A stretch of DNA of 64,000 bases from Eledone cirrhosa (Eukaryota), in contig OZ024753.1 of assembly GCA_964016885.1 (NCBI GenBank), forward strand, positions 868,001 through 932,000, written 5' to 3'. The position numbers and the translations under genes are program-made. Below, in pieces: positions 2,507 through 50,461 of the stretch. Each line of letters starts with the position of its first letter. Positions within the stretch are counted from its first letter, which is position 1. The notes beneath the pieces were generated by a model. That model had not been told where the DNA came from. It made no database searches and saw nothing but the letters and a program-made list of their open reading frames with translations.

Positions 2507-3382
2507 TCAATAGCATGGATAGTGATTACGAATGTGTTCCAATAATTTTTCGAAAATTTCATCCTTAAATTCATACCGCCACATGAATTCGATCAGATCT
2601 CTTCTGTCACAATTCTTAACATGTTCCAACAAACATTCGATGTGGTTAGTTGTGGCAAATGTTACGGGATCAACAAAATTCATAGAATGGTTTGCGGTCA
2701 AATTTTGATAGCCTGGCTGATTAAGCGTATCATAGGAGCGCCAAAGGTCCGAAATTATTGTGGTACCAGGCAATATACGATCTTGTATAATTGCTAAAAG
2801 CGTGTCTGCTGTGCGGTCTACCACTGCCACTAAAATACTTCTTCTGGTATCTCTTTCCAAAGCACCAAACACCCATTGTGTTTTAATCTCATAGCCAACA
2901 TTGAATTTTCTTCTGACGAAGGCGCTCTCGTAAATCTCAACAATTCGGTTTGGCCCCCCAATCTGAATGTTTTGGGCCACATAATATTCGGCGCATATAC
3001 CACGGCAAAAGTTACACCAATCCGCTACGGCCTCCTTCGCAATACCACATTCTTGTGAAATTCCCTTTGCTAAACTTTCATTTGCCCAAAAATACAATAT
3101 GTCAACTATTTGCTGACACTTCAATTTGCTATTTTCTAGAAATGTTCCTTTTCTAATAGACACATTCTTTCTACATGGCCTTCCACATGACCAGATAATG
3201 CCATCTGTCAAATTTTTTTTCTCTATTTCCCTCATCGGTTGACCACATGCAGGGCAGTCCTTGTGAGTATTTAGAAGGCCATGTTGTTTGAGCCAATTAA
3301 TGCAATCTGCTGTAGTAGCGGTAGCGACGACAATATCACGATGCGTAATTTTATTTACGCTGGGGTATAAATTATTACTCAT
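2507..3382 (-). mobile_element. Merlin / IS1595(ISXO2)-family DDE transposase ORF, probably inactive
   Basis: N-terminal CPAC...WSC.RPC zinc ribbon, SIRKGTF, IGGPNRIVEIYES (first catalytic D is Y), QWVFG, PGTTIISDLWRSY, NHSMNFVDP, TNHIE, EFMWR; intronless; ATG at 3382. Confidence 0.9.
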
Positions 3383-4319
3383 TCTAGTTTTCAAGTTGAA
3401 CAGATGGTCAATAGATAAGACGAAAGTCTATTTTTCATACTATGTACAATTCCATGTATTATATCTTTCACTTTACGGATATAAACGACGGGAGGAACTA
3501 TATGCAGGGTTCACCGCTTGCTGAAACGTAAACTTTCTCTTTTGACAGACAAAAACAAACCAATGCTCTTAATTCCATTCTAAAGCTGTTTCTCTTTTTT
3601 TCTTTTGCCTGGAATCCCATTTCATCCTATTTGTTAAAATAAAATAAAAATTCAATTCAAATTCCAACTGTTTTTTTTTTTCGATCTTTCAATCCATAGT
3701 TGAATCACATCCACCTAGTAGTTGAATCCCGTCGAAATTCTTCTTGCTCTGTTGAAATTACTCCACTAAAATCAGTTTGACAAACTCATTAATAACACTT
3801 TTCTCTTTTTTTTAAAGACAAAAAAAAAAAAAAAAAAAAAGAATCCTTGACCTTACGTCGTTTTTCTATTTCATTCCTCTCTCTAAGCAATTTCCATATG
3901 TAATTTATAATATCATCGCTAGTGAAGAAATTCAGTTTCTTAATCCTGCATTTGTTTTACTATTGCACTGGCGGTAATATTTACAATCGTTCGCTGAGTG
4001 AGTTATATGATTTCATATGACAATTAGCATCGAATAAATTAACTGAATTGAAGTTTGTAAAAGAGGTGTTTATAGATATCTGGGCACTACCATGGTATTA
4101 GCTGTCAGAAGTGAAAGTAGAAGAAGGTGACGTCAATCTGACGTCATTCGTCAACCTTCTCAATCGTCAACCTTCGTTTATTTCCGTATCACCACGCGTT
4201 TATTTATGTTTCTTTACGGTTAGGATTAGGGTTGGGGTATGGTTTGGGTTAGTGTTAGGGTTGTAACAGCTAGTGTAGTTTTTAATGCACATGTTAAATA
4301 AGATTGTATATTATCGTTT

Positions 4320-13800: not shown

Positions 13801-16800
13801 TCAATGCAAACTCTTATTTTTATAGATTGATTCATTATATTCCTTAACAGACCGACATATCAAAAGATTGCCATGCTCCAGTTTAAATGGTTATGCTACA
13901 GCACGAGCTTTGGCTAAGTTATATGGAAATATTGCTAACACAGGAGCAAACAAAGATGCAGATATCCTCTCAAAGTCTACTGTTGAAAATATTGATGAAA
14001 TTCTGTCCCGTGAAAATGATGTTGTTCTGAACATTCCCGTGCAGTATGGTCGAGGTCTCACAATTCACACAAATAAAAAGGTTAGTACGTGTATAATGTG
14101 TACACACTTTTATGTATGTGTATACACACACATACACACACACACACACATATATATATATATTAGAATGGATGCAGTAAAAACCAGTTTGACCATTACT
14201 CACCAGAGTACTCGATACTTGGGGTAGTAGAGTGTGGTAATATGAAGGAGTTGGACCCCCAATGGCTGAGCTCCCGCCGTTTCAACAGCTAGTTCCAAAC
14301 AGTAGTTGAAACAGCCAGGAGCTCAGCTGTTGGGGTCACAACTCTTTCATATACACACATATATATATGTATATATATATATATATATATATGGCTTCCT
14401 AATCATTGCAGGAGATTTTTTAATGGACACGTTGGTAAACACCGTGATGGCTTCTATAGAGTCCATGGAGGCTACGGGTTTGGCACAAGAAATGAAGAAG
14501 GCTTCAGGCTTCTGGAATTCTGCGATGCCAATGACATGTTAATATGTAACACAAACTTCAAAAAACCTGACAACCATCTGATCACCTATAGATCAGGGGA
14601 GCATTCTAGTCAGATAGATTTTATTCTCATCAGAGGGCGTGATAGATGGACAGTTGTAAACACAAAAGCCTTCCCTGGTGAGGAATGTACCTCCCAACAT
14701 AACTTAGTTGTCAGCGACCTCACTGTCAAAACTAGACGAACTTGGAAACAGAAGGCAACTTGGAGAAGAAAGATCTGGAAGCTGAAAGACTCCTCAGCCA
14801 GTAACAGATTTAAAGATATTTTACTCGACGCCTATGACAGTAAAGACGAACAGATAGAGACATTCAATGTAGAAGAGCACTGGGAGTTCCTAAAAAATAA
14901 CTTACTAAAGTATTAAAGTAACGGAAAGAGTTATAGCACAGTTGATTAGGGACTGGGAAAAACTAGATGAGATGCAATTTGGGTTTGTACCAGGAAAAGG
15001 CACCACTGATGCCCTCTTCCTTGTGAGGCAGTTACAGGAAAAGTACTTAGCTAAAAGTAAGCCACTCTACCTGGCATTCGTCGATCTGGAAAAAGCCTTT
15101 GACAGAGTGCCCCGTGCTATAATCTGGTGGGCTCTTAGAAAATTAGGAGTAGATGAATGGCTTGTGAAAGCTGTACAAGCCATGTATAGAGGAGCAGTTA
15201 GGAATTTAGCATACAGGTCGATGTCCACCAGGGCTCTATTCTTAGCCCTCTCCTGTTCATTATAGTTTTGCAGGCAATAACGGAGGAGTTTAAGACTGGA
15301 TGCCCATGGGAACTCCTATATGCGGATGATCTTGCACATATAACTGAATCTATGGTGGAACTAGAGAAGAAATTCCAAACATGGAAGTAGGGATTAGAAA
15401 GAAAGGGTCTCAAAGTCAACCTGACAAGGACAAAGGTTCTTGTAAGTAGACGAGAAAACAGAACCCAGATCCCCTCAGGGAAATGGCCTTGCTCAGTGTA
15501 GGAAAGGTGTAGGTAGGAACTCCATCCTCTGCTTCAAATGCAAACAATGGGTACACAAGAGATGTAGTGGGATCTCAAGAAGCTTAACTAAGAATGTAGG
15601 CTTCATATGTAGCAGCTGCGCTGGGACAGCAAGCAGCAAACGGCCACAGGAAACAAGCACCACCAAACTCTGGGAGGGCTCTGTAGAAACAGTAGACATC
15701 TTCTGCTACCTAGGTGACCGAATTAGCAGCGGAAGTGGGTGTTCGGAAAGTACAATAACTAGGGTAAGAACGGGGTGGAAGAAGTTCAGGGAGCTACTGC
15801 CACTGCTAGCTGCAAAAGGCTTCTCCCTCAAAATGAAAGGCAGACTGTATGATGCGTGTACACGAACAGCAATGTTACATGGTAGTGAGACCTGGGCACT
15901 GTCTGTAGAAGACTTGTGTAGATTAGAAAGAAACGTAGCTTGCATGTTCCGATGGATGTGTAATAGTAATATACTCAAACGGCAAAACATAAACGAATTG
16001 AGAGAGAGACTGAGCATAAGAGGAATCAAATACTGTGTGCAGGAGAGGAGATTGCATTGGTATGGACATGTGATGCGTATGAAGGATGACAGCTGCATAA
16101 AAAGGTGCAGAGCACTAGATGTCGATGGAAGCCGCGAAGTGGGGAGACCCAAGAAGACCTGGGATGAGGTGATAAAAGCCGACCTTACCCAATTGCACCT
16201 CTCACGACCCTGACCTCTGGCGTCACGCAGTAATACAGAAGACCCGACTCTCCACAGGTACAAGCCGAAGCTGAAGCATATAGACAATATGCCCCACCCC
16301 CTCCCATTGCAAAGTGGTCGTGGAGGTGCCACGGTAAAAAAGCACCCAGCCCACACTGTAAAGTGGACGTGTAGGCGCCACGGAAAAACAGCACCCAGCA
16401 CTCACTGTAAATGAGGTTGGTGTTAGGAAGGGCACCCAGCTATAGAAATCAAGCCAGAATCAGTTCTCGTATGAGCAAGACGGTCATCTGACTGGACACT
16501 GCCCACAACAGGACAACCCGTCTAACCCATGCTAGCATGGAAGAACGGACGTAAAACGGTGATGATGTTGATGATGATATATATATACAGAATATATTTT
16601 ATAATTAGGTTTTATATATACATATAAAATATATATTGATAAAGTTACTCAACAAAGAAAGCTCAATGAATATTAAGCTCAGAACATAATTTATACAAAT
16701 TTAAATGATATACAAAAAATGCTTCCTATATATATCTAGTTGTTTGGGCAGGTAACTAGTTAATGTAGAGAGTGAGATATATATAGACAAGACCTTAATC

Positions 16801-22150: not shown

Positions 22151-22446
22151 TAAATACCCAAAATAATACCATGGAAGAAGGGGAAGTGTTGTATAACTGA
22201 CAAATGTTTTTTTCATCTTGCAATCCTAACTGCATGTTTTTCTGTATGTTTATATATGCTCTTGTTGAGCTAAAATGTTATTTATATGTTTTATTAATTC
22301 TGAGGATTCCAATTATTGGATTATATTATTAATTAATCAATAATTAAGTATATATATTCAATATGATGGGTGAAACATATGTTAATTAAAATATCATATA
22401 ATTAGCAGTGTTTGGTCTTATTTTCAATGTGTATATATATATATAT

Positions 22447-22649
22447 AGGAACAAGTAAGACCCCGACGGCTGAGCTCAAGCCGTTTCGACGGCTAATTCT
22501 GGACATTATTAGCCGTCCAGAATTAGCCGTAGAAACGGCTTGAGCTCAGCCGTCGGGGTCTTACTTGTTCCTATTACCCACTCTACTACACTAAGTATTG
22601 AGTACTTTGGTGCGTTATGGTCCACCTGGTTCCTTACCACATTTCCTTC

Positions 22650-22652
<3 letters not shown>
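22447..22652 (+). mobile_element. Hairpin element (205-bp family) in (TA)n
   Basis: ~130-bp palindrome 22445-22574 plus an ~80-bp tail. Confidence 0.85.
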
Positions 22653-23436: not shown

Positions 23437-23639
23437 AACGAAGGAAGTGTGGTAAGGTACCAGATCGACCCCATAACGCACCAGAGTACTCAATACTTAG
23501 GGTAGTAAAGTGGGTAATAGGAAAATGTTTGACCCCGACAGCAGAGCTCAAGCCCTTTCGACGGCTATTTCTGGACTAAATTTAGTCCAGAAATAGCTGC
23601 CGAAATGGGTTGAGCTCTGCCGTTGGGGTTAAACATTTT

Positions 23640-23642
<3 letters not shown>
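23436..23642 (-). mobile_element. Hairpin element (205-bp family) in (TA)n
   Basis: Tail followed by palindrome 23517-23644, flanked by (TA)n on both sides. Confidence 0.85.
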
Positions 23643-23700
<58 letters not shown>

Positions 23701-25750: not shown

Positions 25751-26513
25751 CAGTCCTAAGAGTGGCACCCCACCAGGATGCTCTTGCCGAAAGCTTGTCC
25801 AACTTCAACAGCAATGCAACAAACCCGCTGTAGTTATGAAGCTGTGGTCACTCCCAACTGACCAAATCAACCACAGGAGGTCAAATCCTATGTGGGTATG
25901 GCGGAAGCTGATATTGTATTGATATTGTATTGAGATTGTATTACAGAGCAGAAGAAAAGTGGTCTACTACTTAACAAGACTGAGAAACAGATAAAATGCT
26001 TTGTAATATTCGTATCAGCTCTCTGCATTCAGAGTTAAAAACCCACTGAGATCAACTTTGATTTCATGCTTTTGATGTGGATAAATAAAGTTCATGTGTC
26101 AAATTGTCGATAGATGATACATTTGTGTAAAATTATTTCATGGATGTTAATTCTTTACTGAGGAGAAACATTTTTTAGAGAGTTTAAGAAATATATTTTA
26201 ACCGAATATTATTTTTGTTTTATTATTAATAAAATATAAAAATTGCAAATAATGTTCAAATTTTTCTGCGGACCACCAAAATTTTCTCTCAGACCACTAA
26301 TGGTCCACAGGCCACCAGTTGGCAACTGCTGCTCTATATGTAATGAGTGATAGCTATTATATGTCAAGTTCTGGATGAATTAGTCAGTCATGTGAAAAAC
26401 CAGTTGAGTGTTTCTTTACCATTATTGATTCCCCTGAATTAAAGGATTCGAAATGATCAATACATTTATTTCTTAGTTGTCCATTAAAGTTTTTATGAAG
26501 AGACAGATAAATA

Positions 26514-27699
26514 GGTTGTGCATGTATCTGTACATATTGACCAATGGTAACAACATAAACCATATGGCAAAAGGTTGTGCATGTATCTGTACATATTGAC
26601 CAATGGTAACAACATAAACCATATGGCAAAAGGTTGTGCATGTATCTGTACATATTGACCAATGGTAACAACATAAACCAGGTGGCAAAAGGTTGTGCAT
26701 GTATCTGTACATATTGACCAATTGTAACAACATAAACCATATGGCAAAAGGTGGTGCATGTATCTGTACATATTGACCAATGGTAACAACATAAACCAGG
26801 TGGCAAAAGGTTGTGCATGTATCTGTACATATTGACCAATTGTAACAACATAAACCATATGGCAAAAGGTGGTGCATGTATCTGTACATATTGACCAATG
26901 GTAACAACATAAACCATATGGCAAAAGGTTGTGCATGTATCTGTACATATTGACCAATGGTAACAACATAAACCATATGGCAAAAGGTTGTGCATGTATC
27001 TGTACATATTGACCAATGGTAACAACATAAACCATATGGCAAAAGGTGGTGCATGTATCTGTACATATTGACCAATGGTAACAACATAAACCATATGGCA
27101 AAAGGTGGTGCATGTATCTGTACATATTGACCAATGGTAACAACATAAACCAGGTGGCAAAAGGTTGTGCATGTATCTGTACATATTGACCAATGGTAAC
27201 AACATAAACCAGGTGGCAAAAGGTGGTGCATGTATCTGTACATATTGACCAATGGTAACAACATAAACCAGGTGGCAAAGGGTTGTGCATGTATCTGTAC
27301 ATATTGACCAATTGTAACAACATAAACCAGGTGGCAAAAGGTGGTGCATGTATCTGTACATATTGACCAATGGTAACAACATAAACCATATGGCAAAAGG
27401 TTGTGCATGTATCTGTACATATTGACCAATGGTAACAACATAAACCATATGGCAAAAGGTGGTGCATGTATCTGTACATATTGACCAATGGTAACAACAT
27501 AAACCATATGGCAAAAGGTGGTGCATGTATCTGTACATATTGACCAATGGTAACAACATAAACCATATGGCAAAAGGTTGTGCATGTATCTGTACATATT
27601 GACCAATGGTAACAACATAAACCAGGTGGCAAAAGGTTGTGCATGTATCTGTACATATTGACCAATTGTAACAACATAAACCAGGTGGCAAAAGGTTGT
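26514..27699. repeat. 59-bp minisatellite, about 20 copies
   Basis: Unit ggttgtgcatgtatctgtacatattgaccaatggtaacaacataaaccatatggcaaaa with a few recurrent variant sites. Confidence 0.97.
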
Positions 27700-27719
27700 T
27701 ATGTTCCCATTCATCACTC

Positions 27720-27945
27720 TGCTTCTCCAATGTGCAGAACCCCAGGTATAATGAGCAAAATCCATGGTGTATGCTACCTCACAGTCCCCAGCAGAGAAAA
27801 TAGAAAAAGCATCACCCTACAGGATAGTGAAGGAGACACACTGAGAAAGTCATTCCTTCACTCAGAGCCCACTCATGCCTGTGACCAACTCCATACCTAT
27901 AGTAGTGAGTAGGGAGGTGATTCACAGACCAAGAATGACAAAACT
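27720..27945 (-). mobile_element. Degenerate CRE-like 3' fragment
   Basis: Similar to 57180-57405 and 40078-40200. Confidence 0.5.
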
Positions 27946-31760: not shown

Positions 31761-33290
31761 ATGGCTGGACTTCCACCACCCACCAAGAACCCTGAGGTTA
31801 AGTTTACCAAGGTATAGTCACTTTGTCTTTAGTCTTTATGTTCTAAATATCTTTACTTAAAAGTTACATCTTATGTTTATATATATATATATATATATAT
31901 ATCATCATCATCATCACCGTTTTACGTCCGTTCTTCCATGCTAGCATGGGTTAGACGGGTTGTCTTGTTGTGGGCAGTGTCTGGTCGGCTGACCATGCCT
32001 TGCTCATATAGGAACTGATTTTGGCTTGATTTCTACAGCTGGATGCCCTTCCTAACACCAACCTCATTTACAGTGAGTGCTGGGTGCTTTTTCTGTGGCG
32101 CCTACACGTCCACTTTACAGTGTGGGCTGGGTGCTTTTTTGCCGTGGCACCTCCATGACCACCTTGCAGTGGGGGGTGTGGGGGAATATTGTCTATATGC
32201 TTCAGCTTGTACCCATGGGAGGTCGGGTACTCTGTATTACGGTCGTGTGTCATCACCTTTGAGAGGTGTAATTGGGTAAGGTCGGTTTTTATCACCTCAT
32301 CCCAGGTCTTCTTGGGTCTCCCCACTCCGCGGTTCCCATTGACTTCTAGTGCTCTGCACCTTTTTATGCAGCTGTCATCCTTCATACGCATCACATGTCC
32401 ATACCAACGCAACCGCCTCTCCTGCACACAGTATTTGATTCCTCTTATGCTCAGTCTCTCTCTCAATTCATTTATGCTTTGTCGTTCGCGTATATTACTA
32501 TTACACATCCATCGGAGCATGCAGGCTTCGTTTCTTTCTAATCTATGTAAGTCTTCCACCTTCAGCGCCCAGGTCTCACTACCATGTAACATTGCTGTTC
32601 GGATACACGCATCATACAGTCTGCCTTTCATTTTGAGGGTTGAGGGAGAAGCCTTTTGCAGCTAGCAGTGGCAGTAGTTCCCTGAACTTCTTCCATCCCG
32701 TTCTTACCCTAGTTATTGTACTTTCTGAACACCCACCTCCGCTGCTAATTCGGTCACCTAGGTAGCAGAAGCTGTCTACTGTTTCTACAGAGCCCTCCCA
32801 GAGATTGGTGGTGCTTGTTTCCTGTGGCCGTTGACTGCTTGCTGTCCCAGCGCAGCTGCTACATGTGAAGCCTACATTCTTAATTAAGCTTCCTGAGATC
32901 CCGCTACATCTCTTGTGTACCCATTGTTTGCATTTGGGGCAGAGAATGGAGTTCCTACCTACACCTTTCCTACATACTGAGCAAGGCCATTTCCCTGAGG
33001 GGATCTGGGTTTTGTTTTCTCGCCTACTCGTCCTACTCGTTCCTATTACCCACTCTACTACCCTAAGTATTGAGTACTTTGGTGCGTTATGGTCCACCTG
33101 GTTCCTTACCACATTTCCTTCGTTACATATATATATATATATATATATTATCTTTTATTTCTAACTCTATCTTCTGATAACGGAGTAGTGTCTGAAACAC
33201 TAAAATTATTTTCCTGTTATTTCAAATGTTAAACTAATATATTTCTTGAATGTACTGTGTTGTTTGCTTTATTATTTCTCTTTACTTTTA

Positions 33291-46199: not shown

Positions 46200-46277
<78 letters not shown>

Positions 46278-46280
<3 letters not shown>

Positions 46281-46479
46281 AAGGAGTAGGACCCCGACGG
46301 CTGAGCTCAAGCCGTTTCGACGGCTAATTCTGGACTAAATTTAGTCCAGAATTAGCCGTCGAAACGGCTTGAGCTCAGCCGTCGGGGTCCTACTCGTTCC
46401 TATTACCCACTCTACTACCCTAAGTATTGAGTACTTTGGTGCGTTATGGTCCATCTGGTTCCTTACCACATTTCCTTTG

Positions 46480-46482
<3 letters not shown>
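46278..46482 (+). mobile_element. Hairpin element (205-bp family) in (TA)n, cleanest copy
   Basis: Near-perfect palindrome 46276-46403 plus tail. Confidence 0.9.
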
Positions 46483-46536
<54 letters not shown>

Positions 46537-48877: not shown

Positions 48878-50386
48878 ATGAAAATGTATTCACTCGTAAA
48901 GAACATCCTACTACTGGCTGTAACAGCAACTATTGCATGTAAGTTTTCAGAATGGTCTTTATTTTATTTCAATAGACAAAAGGAAATTTTAAACTTGTAA
49001 TGTCATGTACCACATGAATCGATATTAGAAAGACAGAACAGTGGCATGACTGCATCACATTACATCACAGTACTGGCCCATGAATCATTTACTCTGCAGA
49101 ATCAACTGAAAGTCACATAAAATAATAGAACACAAGCTATACAAAAATATAGGATGTTAGAAAAGTTTTCTTCAACTCTAAACATTTTGTACAGCATAAA
49201 ACCATTTTAGTAAGACATTCAGGCAAAGTAAAAGCACAGCTCTATGTCTGTATCACATTAAACTGTAAATTCCTTACTCTAATACTGCACATTTTCATTA
49301 AGATCTGTCCACTAGATACTATAAACATTTGAATTAACAGTCATGTTTTCTTTCATTTTTTCTGCTAAAATATTATAAGGGTTAAGAAAAGGTTTGAAAC
49401 ATTTAATCTTGTTCTGTGCAAACTTCTAAATGCTAATCATGAGAAAAAGGGAACATCTAACAAACTTATTGTTGCAAGCTTAGTTTTGTATATCTCTTAG
49501 AATTTGTTATTCTGAAACTTGATAAAATATATATAAACTGATAAAATATATATGGAATCCTAAAAATCATAAGGAAAATTTTACTGTTCAGAAATTGTAG
49601 TTTTACTTTAGTTTCTGGTTTCCCAAGTGTTCATTGTTTATATATAGGAAGGGCATCCAGCTGTAGAAATCAAGCCAGAATCAGTTCTGTATGAGCAAGA
49701 CATGGTCACCTGACCTGGCATTGCCCACTACAGGACAACTCATCTAACCCATGCTAGTGTGGAAGAATGGACATAAAACGGTGATGATGATGATGATGAT
49801 GATATATATATATATAGTAATAATAATAAAATTTATACTTATATATAGCTTATATATAATTATGAATATGGAGGGTAGTACTAAGTACTAACCAGTTACT
49901 GGTAGGAGAAAAGGCTCAATGTAAATTATCAAATGTATTACAGAGCCGAGATACAAGATATAAAACAATCAAATCTTAGTTTAATACATTTAATTGCTGA
50001 CAATTGTTTCTTCCAGATGGATATCTGGAATCATCGGAGCATAGAGAATGTTTAAACAGGTGATTAAAAGCCTAGTCTTCAGAACATTTGTATGGATACA
50101 TAACTATTGCTAGTGTCATTGACATCATATAGAAAAGCAAGGAGTTACAAAAGGATGTTATGCTATGTGTTATCTGTAGCATAACATCCTTTTGTAACTC
50201 CTTGCTTTTCTATATGATGTCAATGACACTGGCAATAGTTATGTATCTATACAAATGTTCTGAAGACTATGTTTTTAATCACCTGTTTAAACATTCTCTA
50301 TGCTCTGATGATTCCAGATATCCATCTGGAAGAAACAATTGTCAGCAATTAAATGTATTAAACTAAGATTTGATTGTTTTATATTT

Positions 50387-50461
<75 letters not shown>

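What the first reader, a model, noticed from the sequence alone, without database searches (positions are those of the whole stretch)
46276..46482. 205-bp family that looks like a hammerhead turned into a perfect palindrome
Seen: five copies (14163-, 22447+, 23436-, 33029+ tail only, 46278+), all in (TA)n, each with a ~128-bp palindrome and an ~80-bp tail. The right arm reads long stem II-GAAA-cggc(ttgagctca)gccg-UC-ggggtcc, which is the complete 3' half of a type-I hammerhead with a GUC site. Where CUGANGA should be, there is instead the exact complement of that half. Copy-specific substitutions appear symmetrically in both arms (gagtagg/cctactc, aagtaag/cttactt, aatgttt/aaacatt). Inference: cDNA folds back at stem II during reverse transcription and rebuilds the palindrome at each insertion, or the arms are homogenised. 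The family may also persist as a ribozyme substrate strand cleaved in trans.
Basis: partly seen in the sequence, partly recalled or inferred. Interest (0 to 1): 0.72.

Follow-up and report, generated by a model that had tools for sequence, protein, structure and literature searches.

The report
Stubs of a Penelope-like retrotransposon
This 205-base mirror-image repeat is the shortest and commonest insertion product of a known kind of jumping gene (a Hydra-type Penelope-like retrotransposon), likely made when two short DNA copies of the start of its RNA are joined head to head; the points where the copies stop likely record where that RNA begins and where its self-cutting ribozyme cut it inside the animal.

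Summary
The palindrome-plus-tail is real: at least 9,708 exact copies genome-wide. Right arm and tail match (140/143 nt) the pseudo-LTR of a 3.5-kb Hydra-clade Penelope-like element with an intact 717-aa RT/GIY-YIG ORF. The parent carries the whole type-I hammerhead, mostly with a U3-A8 core (4,543 copies), supported by compensatory changes; the tail is the start of its 5' UTR. Fold-back at stem II is not supported. In 17 simple long head-to-head insertions there is always one tailed and one tail-less arm, and either can be the longer. Symmetric differences are subfamily alleles, not copy-specific; private changes are asymmetric. Best model: both strands of a (TA)n cut prime reverse transcription at two RNA sites 79 nt apart, run off an RNA 5' end and are joined. 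Ends pile up at -64 (likely transcription start) and exactly at the predicted ribozyme cut, -19. The layout is known (Craig 2021; Frangieh 2024), and this scan noted it on other DNA; the end mapping is the new part. No RNA data.

The parts
46240..46276 (.). (TA)n target, left
46277..46340 (-). Left arm: inverted copy of parent positions -64..-1, starting at RT start site 1 (inferred top-strand cDNA)
   Evidence: parents end at the same base directly into (TA)n in 20 of 30 loci
46339..46402 (+). Right arm: parent positions -64..-1; begins at the -64 wall (inferred RNA 5' end, in the loop of hammerhead stem II)
   Evidence: arm plus tail 140/143 identical to parent copy L086; end histograms
46353..46388 (+). 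3' half of the type-I hammerhead: stem II 3' strand 46353-46360, GAAA 46361-46364, stem III 46365-46381, predicted cut between 46383 and 46384, stem I 3' strand 46384-46388
   Evidence: complete ribozyme in parents, covariation, cDNA ends at this cut
46403..46481 (+). 79-nt tail between RT start site 1 and site 2; in full-length parents it runs on ~93 nt to the ATG, so it is the start of the 5' UTR
46482..46531 (.). (TA)n target, right
22446..22652 (+). Stub of subfamily B (parent L057/L360)
23437..23643 (-). Stub of subfamily F (parent L229)
14165..14351 (-). Stub of older subfamily G (parents L425, L443-L450)
33030..33124 (+). One-armed copy (-16 to tail end) joined on the left to a LINE fragment

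Best explanation
The repeat is the shortest insertion class of a Hydra-clade Penelope-like retrotransposon, likely formed when both strands of a cut (TA)n each prime reverse transcription near the 5' end of the element's RNA and the two short cDNAs are joined head to head. Shown: the parent unit is 3,531 bp: tail, 5' UTR, 717-aa ORF, 1.2-kb 3' UTR, hammerhead; insertions end at one of two sites 79 nt apart, each closing on UAU that matches the target. Inferred steps: (1) the GIY-YIG domain cuts both strands of (TA)n; (2) one 3' end primes at site 1 (tail-less arm), the other at site 2 (tailed arm); (3) on a linear RNA both cDNAs run off the 5' end, at -64 (likely the transcription start, inside the loop of hammerhead stem II) or at -19 (the hammerhead cut); (4) the two 3' ends are joined bluntly, by microhomology or with short fillers, giving a palindrome with a new centre each time; (5) long and full-length copies need a template that continues past these ends (circular or tandem read-through RNA, or a template jump). 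The stubs are likely dead ends rather than a self-copying family.
For: Parent identity and ORF. Two ends into (TA)n: 20 tail-less and 10 tailed of 30 parent loci; also as loose (AT)n read ends in three raw DNA runs. 17 of 17 simple long pairs have one tailed and one tail-less arm; tail-less longer by 100 nt or more in 9, tailed longer in 7, equal in 1 (3 complex loci of 20 left out). Short pairs: left longer 20, right longer 18, within 3 nt 19, of 57. Wall at -64: 45 of 90 right arms end at -64..-54 and only 8 pass; ORF-bearing copies also stop there (9 of 67) or at -22..-17 (6 of 67), none between -101 and -64; stop/pass 45/8 vs 9/41, Fisher p 4e-12, so it is not a fixed roadblock. Ends at the predicted cut: both arms within -17..-20 in 22 of 30 loci, about 85 of the first 100 of 163 very short copies of the youngest subfamily by eye, about 24 of 100 in subfamily A. 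One-base fillers are A 7 and T 10 (G 2, C 1), as expected if either cDNA can carry an untemplated A. In vitro precedent: PAc cuts and extends both strands and starts at two internal sites that delimit the tail (PMC11167929, parts 1-2 of 4 read).
Against: No RNA evidence for either 5' end, for circles or for cleavage. In a similarity-ranked set of 14 long pairs the tailed arm was longer in 11, and two loci break the one-tail rule (L120 two tail-less arms; L050 two tailed arms). Post-insertion deletions in palindromes can also scramble centres; about 60 of 100 very short copies are collapses between repeated motifs. Seven of 30 centres are ambiguous through a shared 4-nt word. Rfam does not recognise the hammerhead and Pfam finds nothing in the ORF. 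About 20 of 100 complete ribozymes have an unpaired C3.A8 core, yet subfamily A, where that core is common, also shows -19 ends. The tandem units among the 67 5' ends are not independent.
Confidence: 0.82

Rival explanations
1. Fold-back: one tail-primed cDNA snaps back (at stem II or after run-off), copies itself and stops at site 1.
For: Arms agree in subfamily alleles in 53 of 59 copies vs 39% if paired at random; tailed arm longer in 11 of 14 similarity-ranked pairs; the centre lies at the loop of extended stem II.
Against: Tail-less arm longer by 100-2,400 nt in 9 of 17 pairs; site 1 is a free-standing end of long cDNAs; only 4 of 58 left arms pass -64, so the hairpin's other strand is not copied; blunt and +A junctions; 6 of 59 copies have discordant arms.
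Confidence: 0.08
2. The stubs are a self-propagating non-autonomous family: each is transcribed outward from its centre and re-copied by the parent's protein, regenerating the palindrome.
For: Stubs outnumber full 5' ends about 30-fold (9,708 vs 335); Penelope has an internal promoter (PMC2377424, abstract and passages).
Against: Arm types A, B, D, F and G each have long parents with the same alleles; a parent of type C was not found in my samples. Stubs lack the sequence downstream of the tail, where PAc needs its binding region (PMC11167929).
Confidence: 0.07
3. A DNA element (MITE, Helentron-type, or parvovirus-like rolling hairpin with flip/flop ends).
For: Fixed ends and a long hairpin; an apparent G/G versus C/C flip-flop among the 30 best hits.
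Against: Only 10 genome copies carry that left-arm variant: a ranking artefact. Centres are not inherited (24 forms in 30). The partner encodes RT and GIY-YIG, not a transposase or Rep.
Confidence: 0.02

Closest known systems
Hydra clade of Penelope-like elements, e.g. Hydra-1_Obim of Octopus bimaculoides (Craig et al. 2021, PMC8557442; section 11, passages and supplement passages read)
   Same: Single ORF, RT then GIY-YIG; DKT, RW(R/K), CxCX5C linker, no CCHH, CxxC and CxH around E and N; hammerhead; (TA)n target; inverted 5'-truncated copy with a tail at one end. The 3' end of the Hydra sequence printed just before Hydra-1_Obim carries the same two short tail words as this tail.
   Different: A different family (motifs align by eye, ends and ribozyme differ); unit 3.5 kb rather than under 3 kb; tail 79 nt rather than 30-40; U3-A8 core, long stem II, stable stem III; output dominated by ~200-bp stubs.
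Poseidon PAc of Anolis carolinensis (Frangieh et al. 2024, PMC11167929; parts 1-2 of 4 read)
   Same: Two internal RT start sites near the ORF start that delimit the tail; both target strands cut and extended; hammerhead just upstream.
   Different: Here both sites end in 3 nt matching the target, each insertion seems to use one site per strand, and many copies end at the ribozyme cut. PAc starts without homology, and no RNA-seq reads ended at its cut.
PLE hammerheads (Cervera and De la Pena 2014, PMC4209133; parts 1-2 of 4 read)
   Same: Type I, in the pLTR, short stem I, long stem II, palindromic loop 3, U3-A8 variant (Schistosoma Cercyon), motifs on opposite strands 100-700 bp apart; circular template proposed.
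   Different: Stem III is stable here (monomer fold equals the MFE in the youngest subfamily); the paper states that in vivo evidence was lacking.
Penelope of Drosophila virilis (Schostak et al. 2008, PMC2377424; abstract and passages read)
   Same: Partial tandems, inverted terminal copies of variable size, transcript starting inside the pLTR from an internal promoter.
   Different: Other clade; has an intron; 34-bp tail; no dominant stub class described in the passages seen.
Non-LTR retrozymes (bioRxiv 10.64898/2026.07.22.740005; part 1 of 5 read)
   Same: Short non-coding sequences derived from PLE pLTRs with type-I hammerheads.
   Different: Retrozymes are head-to-tail tandems with a complete ribozyme in each unit; these stubs are head-to-head and hold only the 3' half.

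Membership tests
Penelope-like elements (EN+) | Single ORF with RT and GIY-YIG endonuclease | tested here: met
   Intact 717-aa ORF L371:957-3107 with FDI, YRDD and VIY..YIG motifs; Atlas neighbours at 0.96-0.99 include GIY-YIG and RVT_1 clusters; Pfam itself gave no hit.
Penelope-like elements (EN+) | Partial tandems forming pLTRs, inverted 5'-truncated copy, tail at one end | tested here: met
Penelope-like elements (EN+) | Placement in an RT phylogeny | not tested
   Reference sequences were seen only as supplement text; compared by eye at motif level.
Hydra clade | DKT and RWK motifs | tested here: met
   HSDKTG; RLRWRT (RWR instead of RWK)
Hydra clade | CxCX5C linker, no CCHH, CxxC and CxH flanking E and N | tested here: met
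   CNCPDRSIC; no cysteine pair between VIY and YIG; CNLC..E..N..CKH
Hydra clade | (TA)n target and hammerhead | tested here: met
Hydra clade | Length generally under 3 kb | tested here: not met
   Unit 3,531-3,544 bp because of a 1.2-kb 3' UTR; a tendency in the paper, not a strict feature.
Type-I hammerhead (parent) | Three stems around the core, 3-8 pair, GAAA, NUH | tested here: met
   93.9% of cells paired, 4 pairs with double changes incl. U3-A8/C3-G8 and two in stem II; 0/500 shuffles reach the covariation score (related sequences, so not a probability). C3.A8 in 20 of 100. Rfam: no hit.
Type-I hammerhead (parent) | Self-cleavage | not testable with these tools
   Indirect only: cDNA ends at the predicted cut.
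Type-I hammerhead (205-bp stub) | 5' core strand present | tested here: not met
   Absent on both strands.
Non-LTR retrozyme | Head-to-tail units each with a complete hammerhead | tested here: not met
   Head-to-head, half ribozyme.
MITE / rolling-hairpin DNA element | Inherited interior and a transposase or Rep partner | tested here: not met
   24 centres in 30 copies; partner is RT/GIY-YIG; flip-flop rejected.

The most novel reading that the evidence does not exclude
The thousands of stubs are a fossil run-off assay. They map the element's transcription start inside its own ribozyme (-64) and show that a PLE hammerhead with a U3-A8 core cuts the template RNA in the germline (-19). On this reading linear RNA makes only dead palindromes, productive copies need a ribozyme-made circle or a tandem read-through, and the half-ribozyme at the mRNA's 5' end may be cut by the core strand from its 3' end.
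Probability: 0.4. Interest if true: 0.65.

Novelty: new member of a known kind. Interest (0 to 1): 0.42.

Why it matters
As a repeat it is ordinary: a known insertion layout of a known clade, easily mis-annotated as a MITE. Its value is mechanistic. How PLEs make inverted ends and tails, and whether their hammerheads cut in vivo, are stated as open in the papers read. A young family with intact ORFs and over ten thousand run-off products gives base-exact predictions (two start sites, one per strand; RNA 5' ends at -64 and -19) that RACE and an in vitro reaction can test directly.

Tried and rejected
Flip-flop/parvovirus-like hairpin transfer: rejected by the count. Search for a parent with a canonical CUGANGA joined to the palindromic stem: 11 unrelated hits. 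Arm homogenisation: rejected. Rfam: no hammerhead in the window or the parent. Pfam and PDB: nothing for the ORF. DNA search with the tail alone returned nothing because common words are skipped. Mis-aimed or malformed calls, not used as evidence: 26 (flank instead of parent), 59 (ORF instead of pLTR), 71 (offset error, redone), 73 and 96 (wrong gap lengths). RAD-seq depth is biased by restriction sites, so only the loose ends were used. Literature searches for a prior description of this stub class or of copy ends at a PLE hammerhead cut showed none in the listings; most subscription papers are not covered, hits other than the five papers named were seen as listings only, and supplements of the bioRxiv preprint and of PMC11167929 were not read.

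Full report
Observation. The window (G000:C13:868001-932000; 3.0-Gb genome, likely an octopus by inference from size and from the kinship of its elements to Hydra-1_Obim) holds five copies. Copy 46277-46481 is a 126-bp palindrome with one mismatch plus a 79-nt tail between (TA)n runs (z -18.5). A 33-nt tail word occurs 17,060 times exactly and the two-armed form at least 9,708 times. The 33030 copy is one-armed and joined to a LINE fragment. Positions below are counted from site 1, the outer end of the arm.

Parent. Among the first 30 copies by position, three had a non-palindromic upstream part leading to a GIY-YIG C-terminus. Following it gave a 3,531-bp unit in tandem arrays with an intact 717-aa ORF; neighbouring units differ at 1 of 3,531 bases. 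The ORF has the Hydra-clade marks listed by Craig et al. (section 11): DKT, RWR for RWK, CxCX5C linker, no CCHH, flanking CxxC and CxH. Pfam gave no hit; the Atlas placed it beside ~700-aa eukaryotic clusters and GIY-YIG/RVT_1 clusters. In 335 places the tail runs on into the 5' UTR and ATG, so the tail is the front of the next unit, as for PAc. The window's right arm plus tail matches a parent at 140 of 143 nt.

Ribozyme. Parents carry the missing 5' half: 4,543 complete copies; in the first 100, by eye, 80 have U3-A8 and 20 C3.A8, with position 7 free (G, U, A) (25 and 5 of 30 by script). An older subfamily has a different stem II with compensatory changes and mostly U3-A8 cores, one C3-G8 among 23. 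On 11 sequences chosen to span subfamilies, 93.9% of cells pair and four pairs change on both sides. The three-way junction is the MFE in 3 of the 8 commonest variants and lies 0.7-5.8 kcal/mol above it in the other five. U3-A8 is known from Schistosoma PLEs. Rfam misses the motif. Activity was not tested.

Symmetric substitutions. They are subfamily alleles. The aaacatt arm occurs 4,022 times, and types A, B, D, F and G have long parents; no parent of type C was seen. Arms agree in type in 53 of 59 copies (39% expected at random), but private changes are 88 asymmetric to 3 symmetric, and arms (1.8% at non-CpG sites) have diverged like tails (1.9%). So both arms are usually copied from the same subfamily at insertion and then age separately.

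How the palindrome forms. Parent copies end in (TA)n at site 1 (20 of 30) or at site 2, 79 nt further (10 of 30); both sites close on UAU, and both ends appear in raw reads of three DNA runs. Of 20 head-to-head loci picked by position, 17 were simple; all 17 had one tailed and one tail-less arm, the tail-less one longer in 9, shorter in 7, equal in 1. A similarity-ranked set leaned the other way (tailed longer in 11 of 14), and two loci broke the one-tail rule. A fold-back of a tail-primed cDNA cannot make the tail-less arm longer, and a fold-back at stem II must copy past -64, which 4 of 58 left arms do. Two separately primed cDNAs joined end to end fit the data, as do the 24 centres in 30 copies and the A and T one-base fillers.

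Why 205 bp. Arms hit a wall at -64: 45 of 90 right arms end at -64..-54 and 8 pass. ORF-bearing copies stop there too (9 of 67) and never between -101 and -64, but 41 pass. The stop rate differs strongly between the two groups, which fits a class of RNAs that begin at -64 better than a structural block. The word there resembles a Pol II initiator (recalled, not tested), and Penelope starts inside its pLTR. A second class ends at -19, the predicted cut: both arms within -17..-20 in 22 of 30 loci, about 85 of 100 by eye in the youngest subfamily with 28 blunt joins (the pattern allowed 22 nt of slack), about 24 of 100 in subfamily A, and 6 of 67 ORF-bearing copies. I read these as run-off from ribozyme-cut RNA. 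Near-identical tandem arrays fit the circular template proposed by Cervera and De la Pena but do not prove it.

Known and new. The inverted truncated copy with a one-sided tail, the (TA)n bias and the hammerhead are described for Hydra and other PLEs, and two internal start sites for PAc. Earlier notes of this scan reached the same filing for similar palindromes in this and other genomes, one with a short-end/long-end rule (read after my analysis, unchecked). What I did not find in the listings is the mapping of copy ends to an RNA start inside the ribozyme and to its cut site; Frangieh et al. report no RNA reads ending at the cut. Verdict: new member of a known kind, of moderate interest because it makes open mechanistic questions testable.

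Noticed in passing
window 49951-50391: Spacer-poor palindrome with 215-nt arms, 97% complementary, ending in (TA)n on the right; not of this family.
   Followed up: no
L047 1280-1440 and hits: Another repeat family ending in (TA)n that also forms head-to-head pairs genome-wide; probably a second Penelope-like family.
   Followed up: no
L065 (= L279): Left arm and tail of subfamily C but right arm of subfamily D, as if the tail-primed cDNA changed template at site 1; single case.
   Followed up: partly
L183/L324, L248: A copy starting at -63/-61 is joined directly to the ORF start of an upstream copy: likely a template jump after run-off.
   Followed up: partly
L054 460-1500: GIY-YIG and 3' UTR of a different PLE family fused to this family's arm from -47 and tail.
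   Followed up: no
G000:C1:437200343-437210962, C1:91476614-91487267, C2:320551597-320558711: Tandem arrays of 3-4 or more units with a 3,531-3,544-bp period; intact ORFs in two of the three.
   Followed up: partly
   Followed up: partly
window 2507-3427 (-): 306-aa open frame with an ISXO2/IS1595-like (Merlin-type, name recalled) transposase domain, Pfam E 1.4e-12.
   Followed up: partly
window 14400-16600, 31879-33028: LINE fragments (RTE-like by recall) with a PHD-finger hit.
   Followed up: no
window 26384-27816: Tandem repeat open in three frames on the minus strand.
   Followed up: no
window 13865-14080: Likely host exon just before the 14165 copy; beta-lactamase-like by recall, no Pfam hit.
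   Followed up: partly
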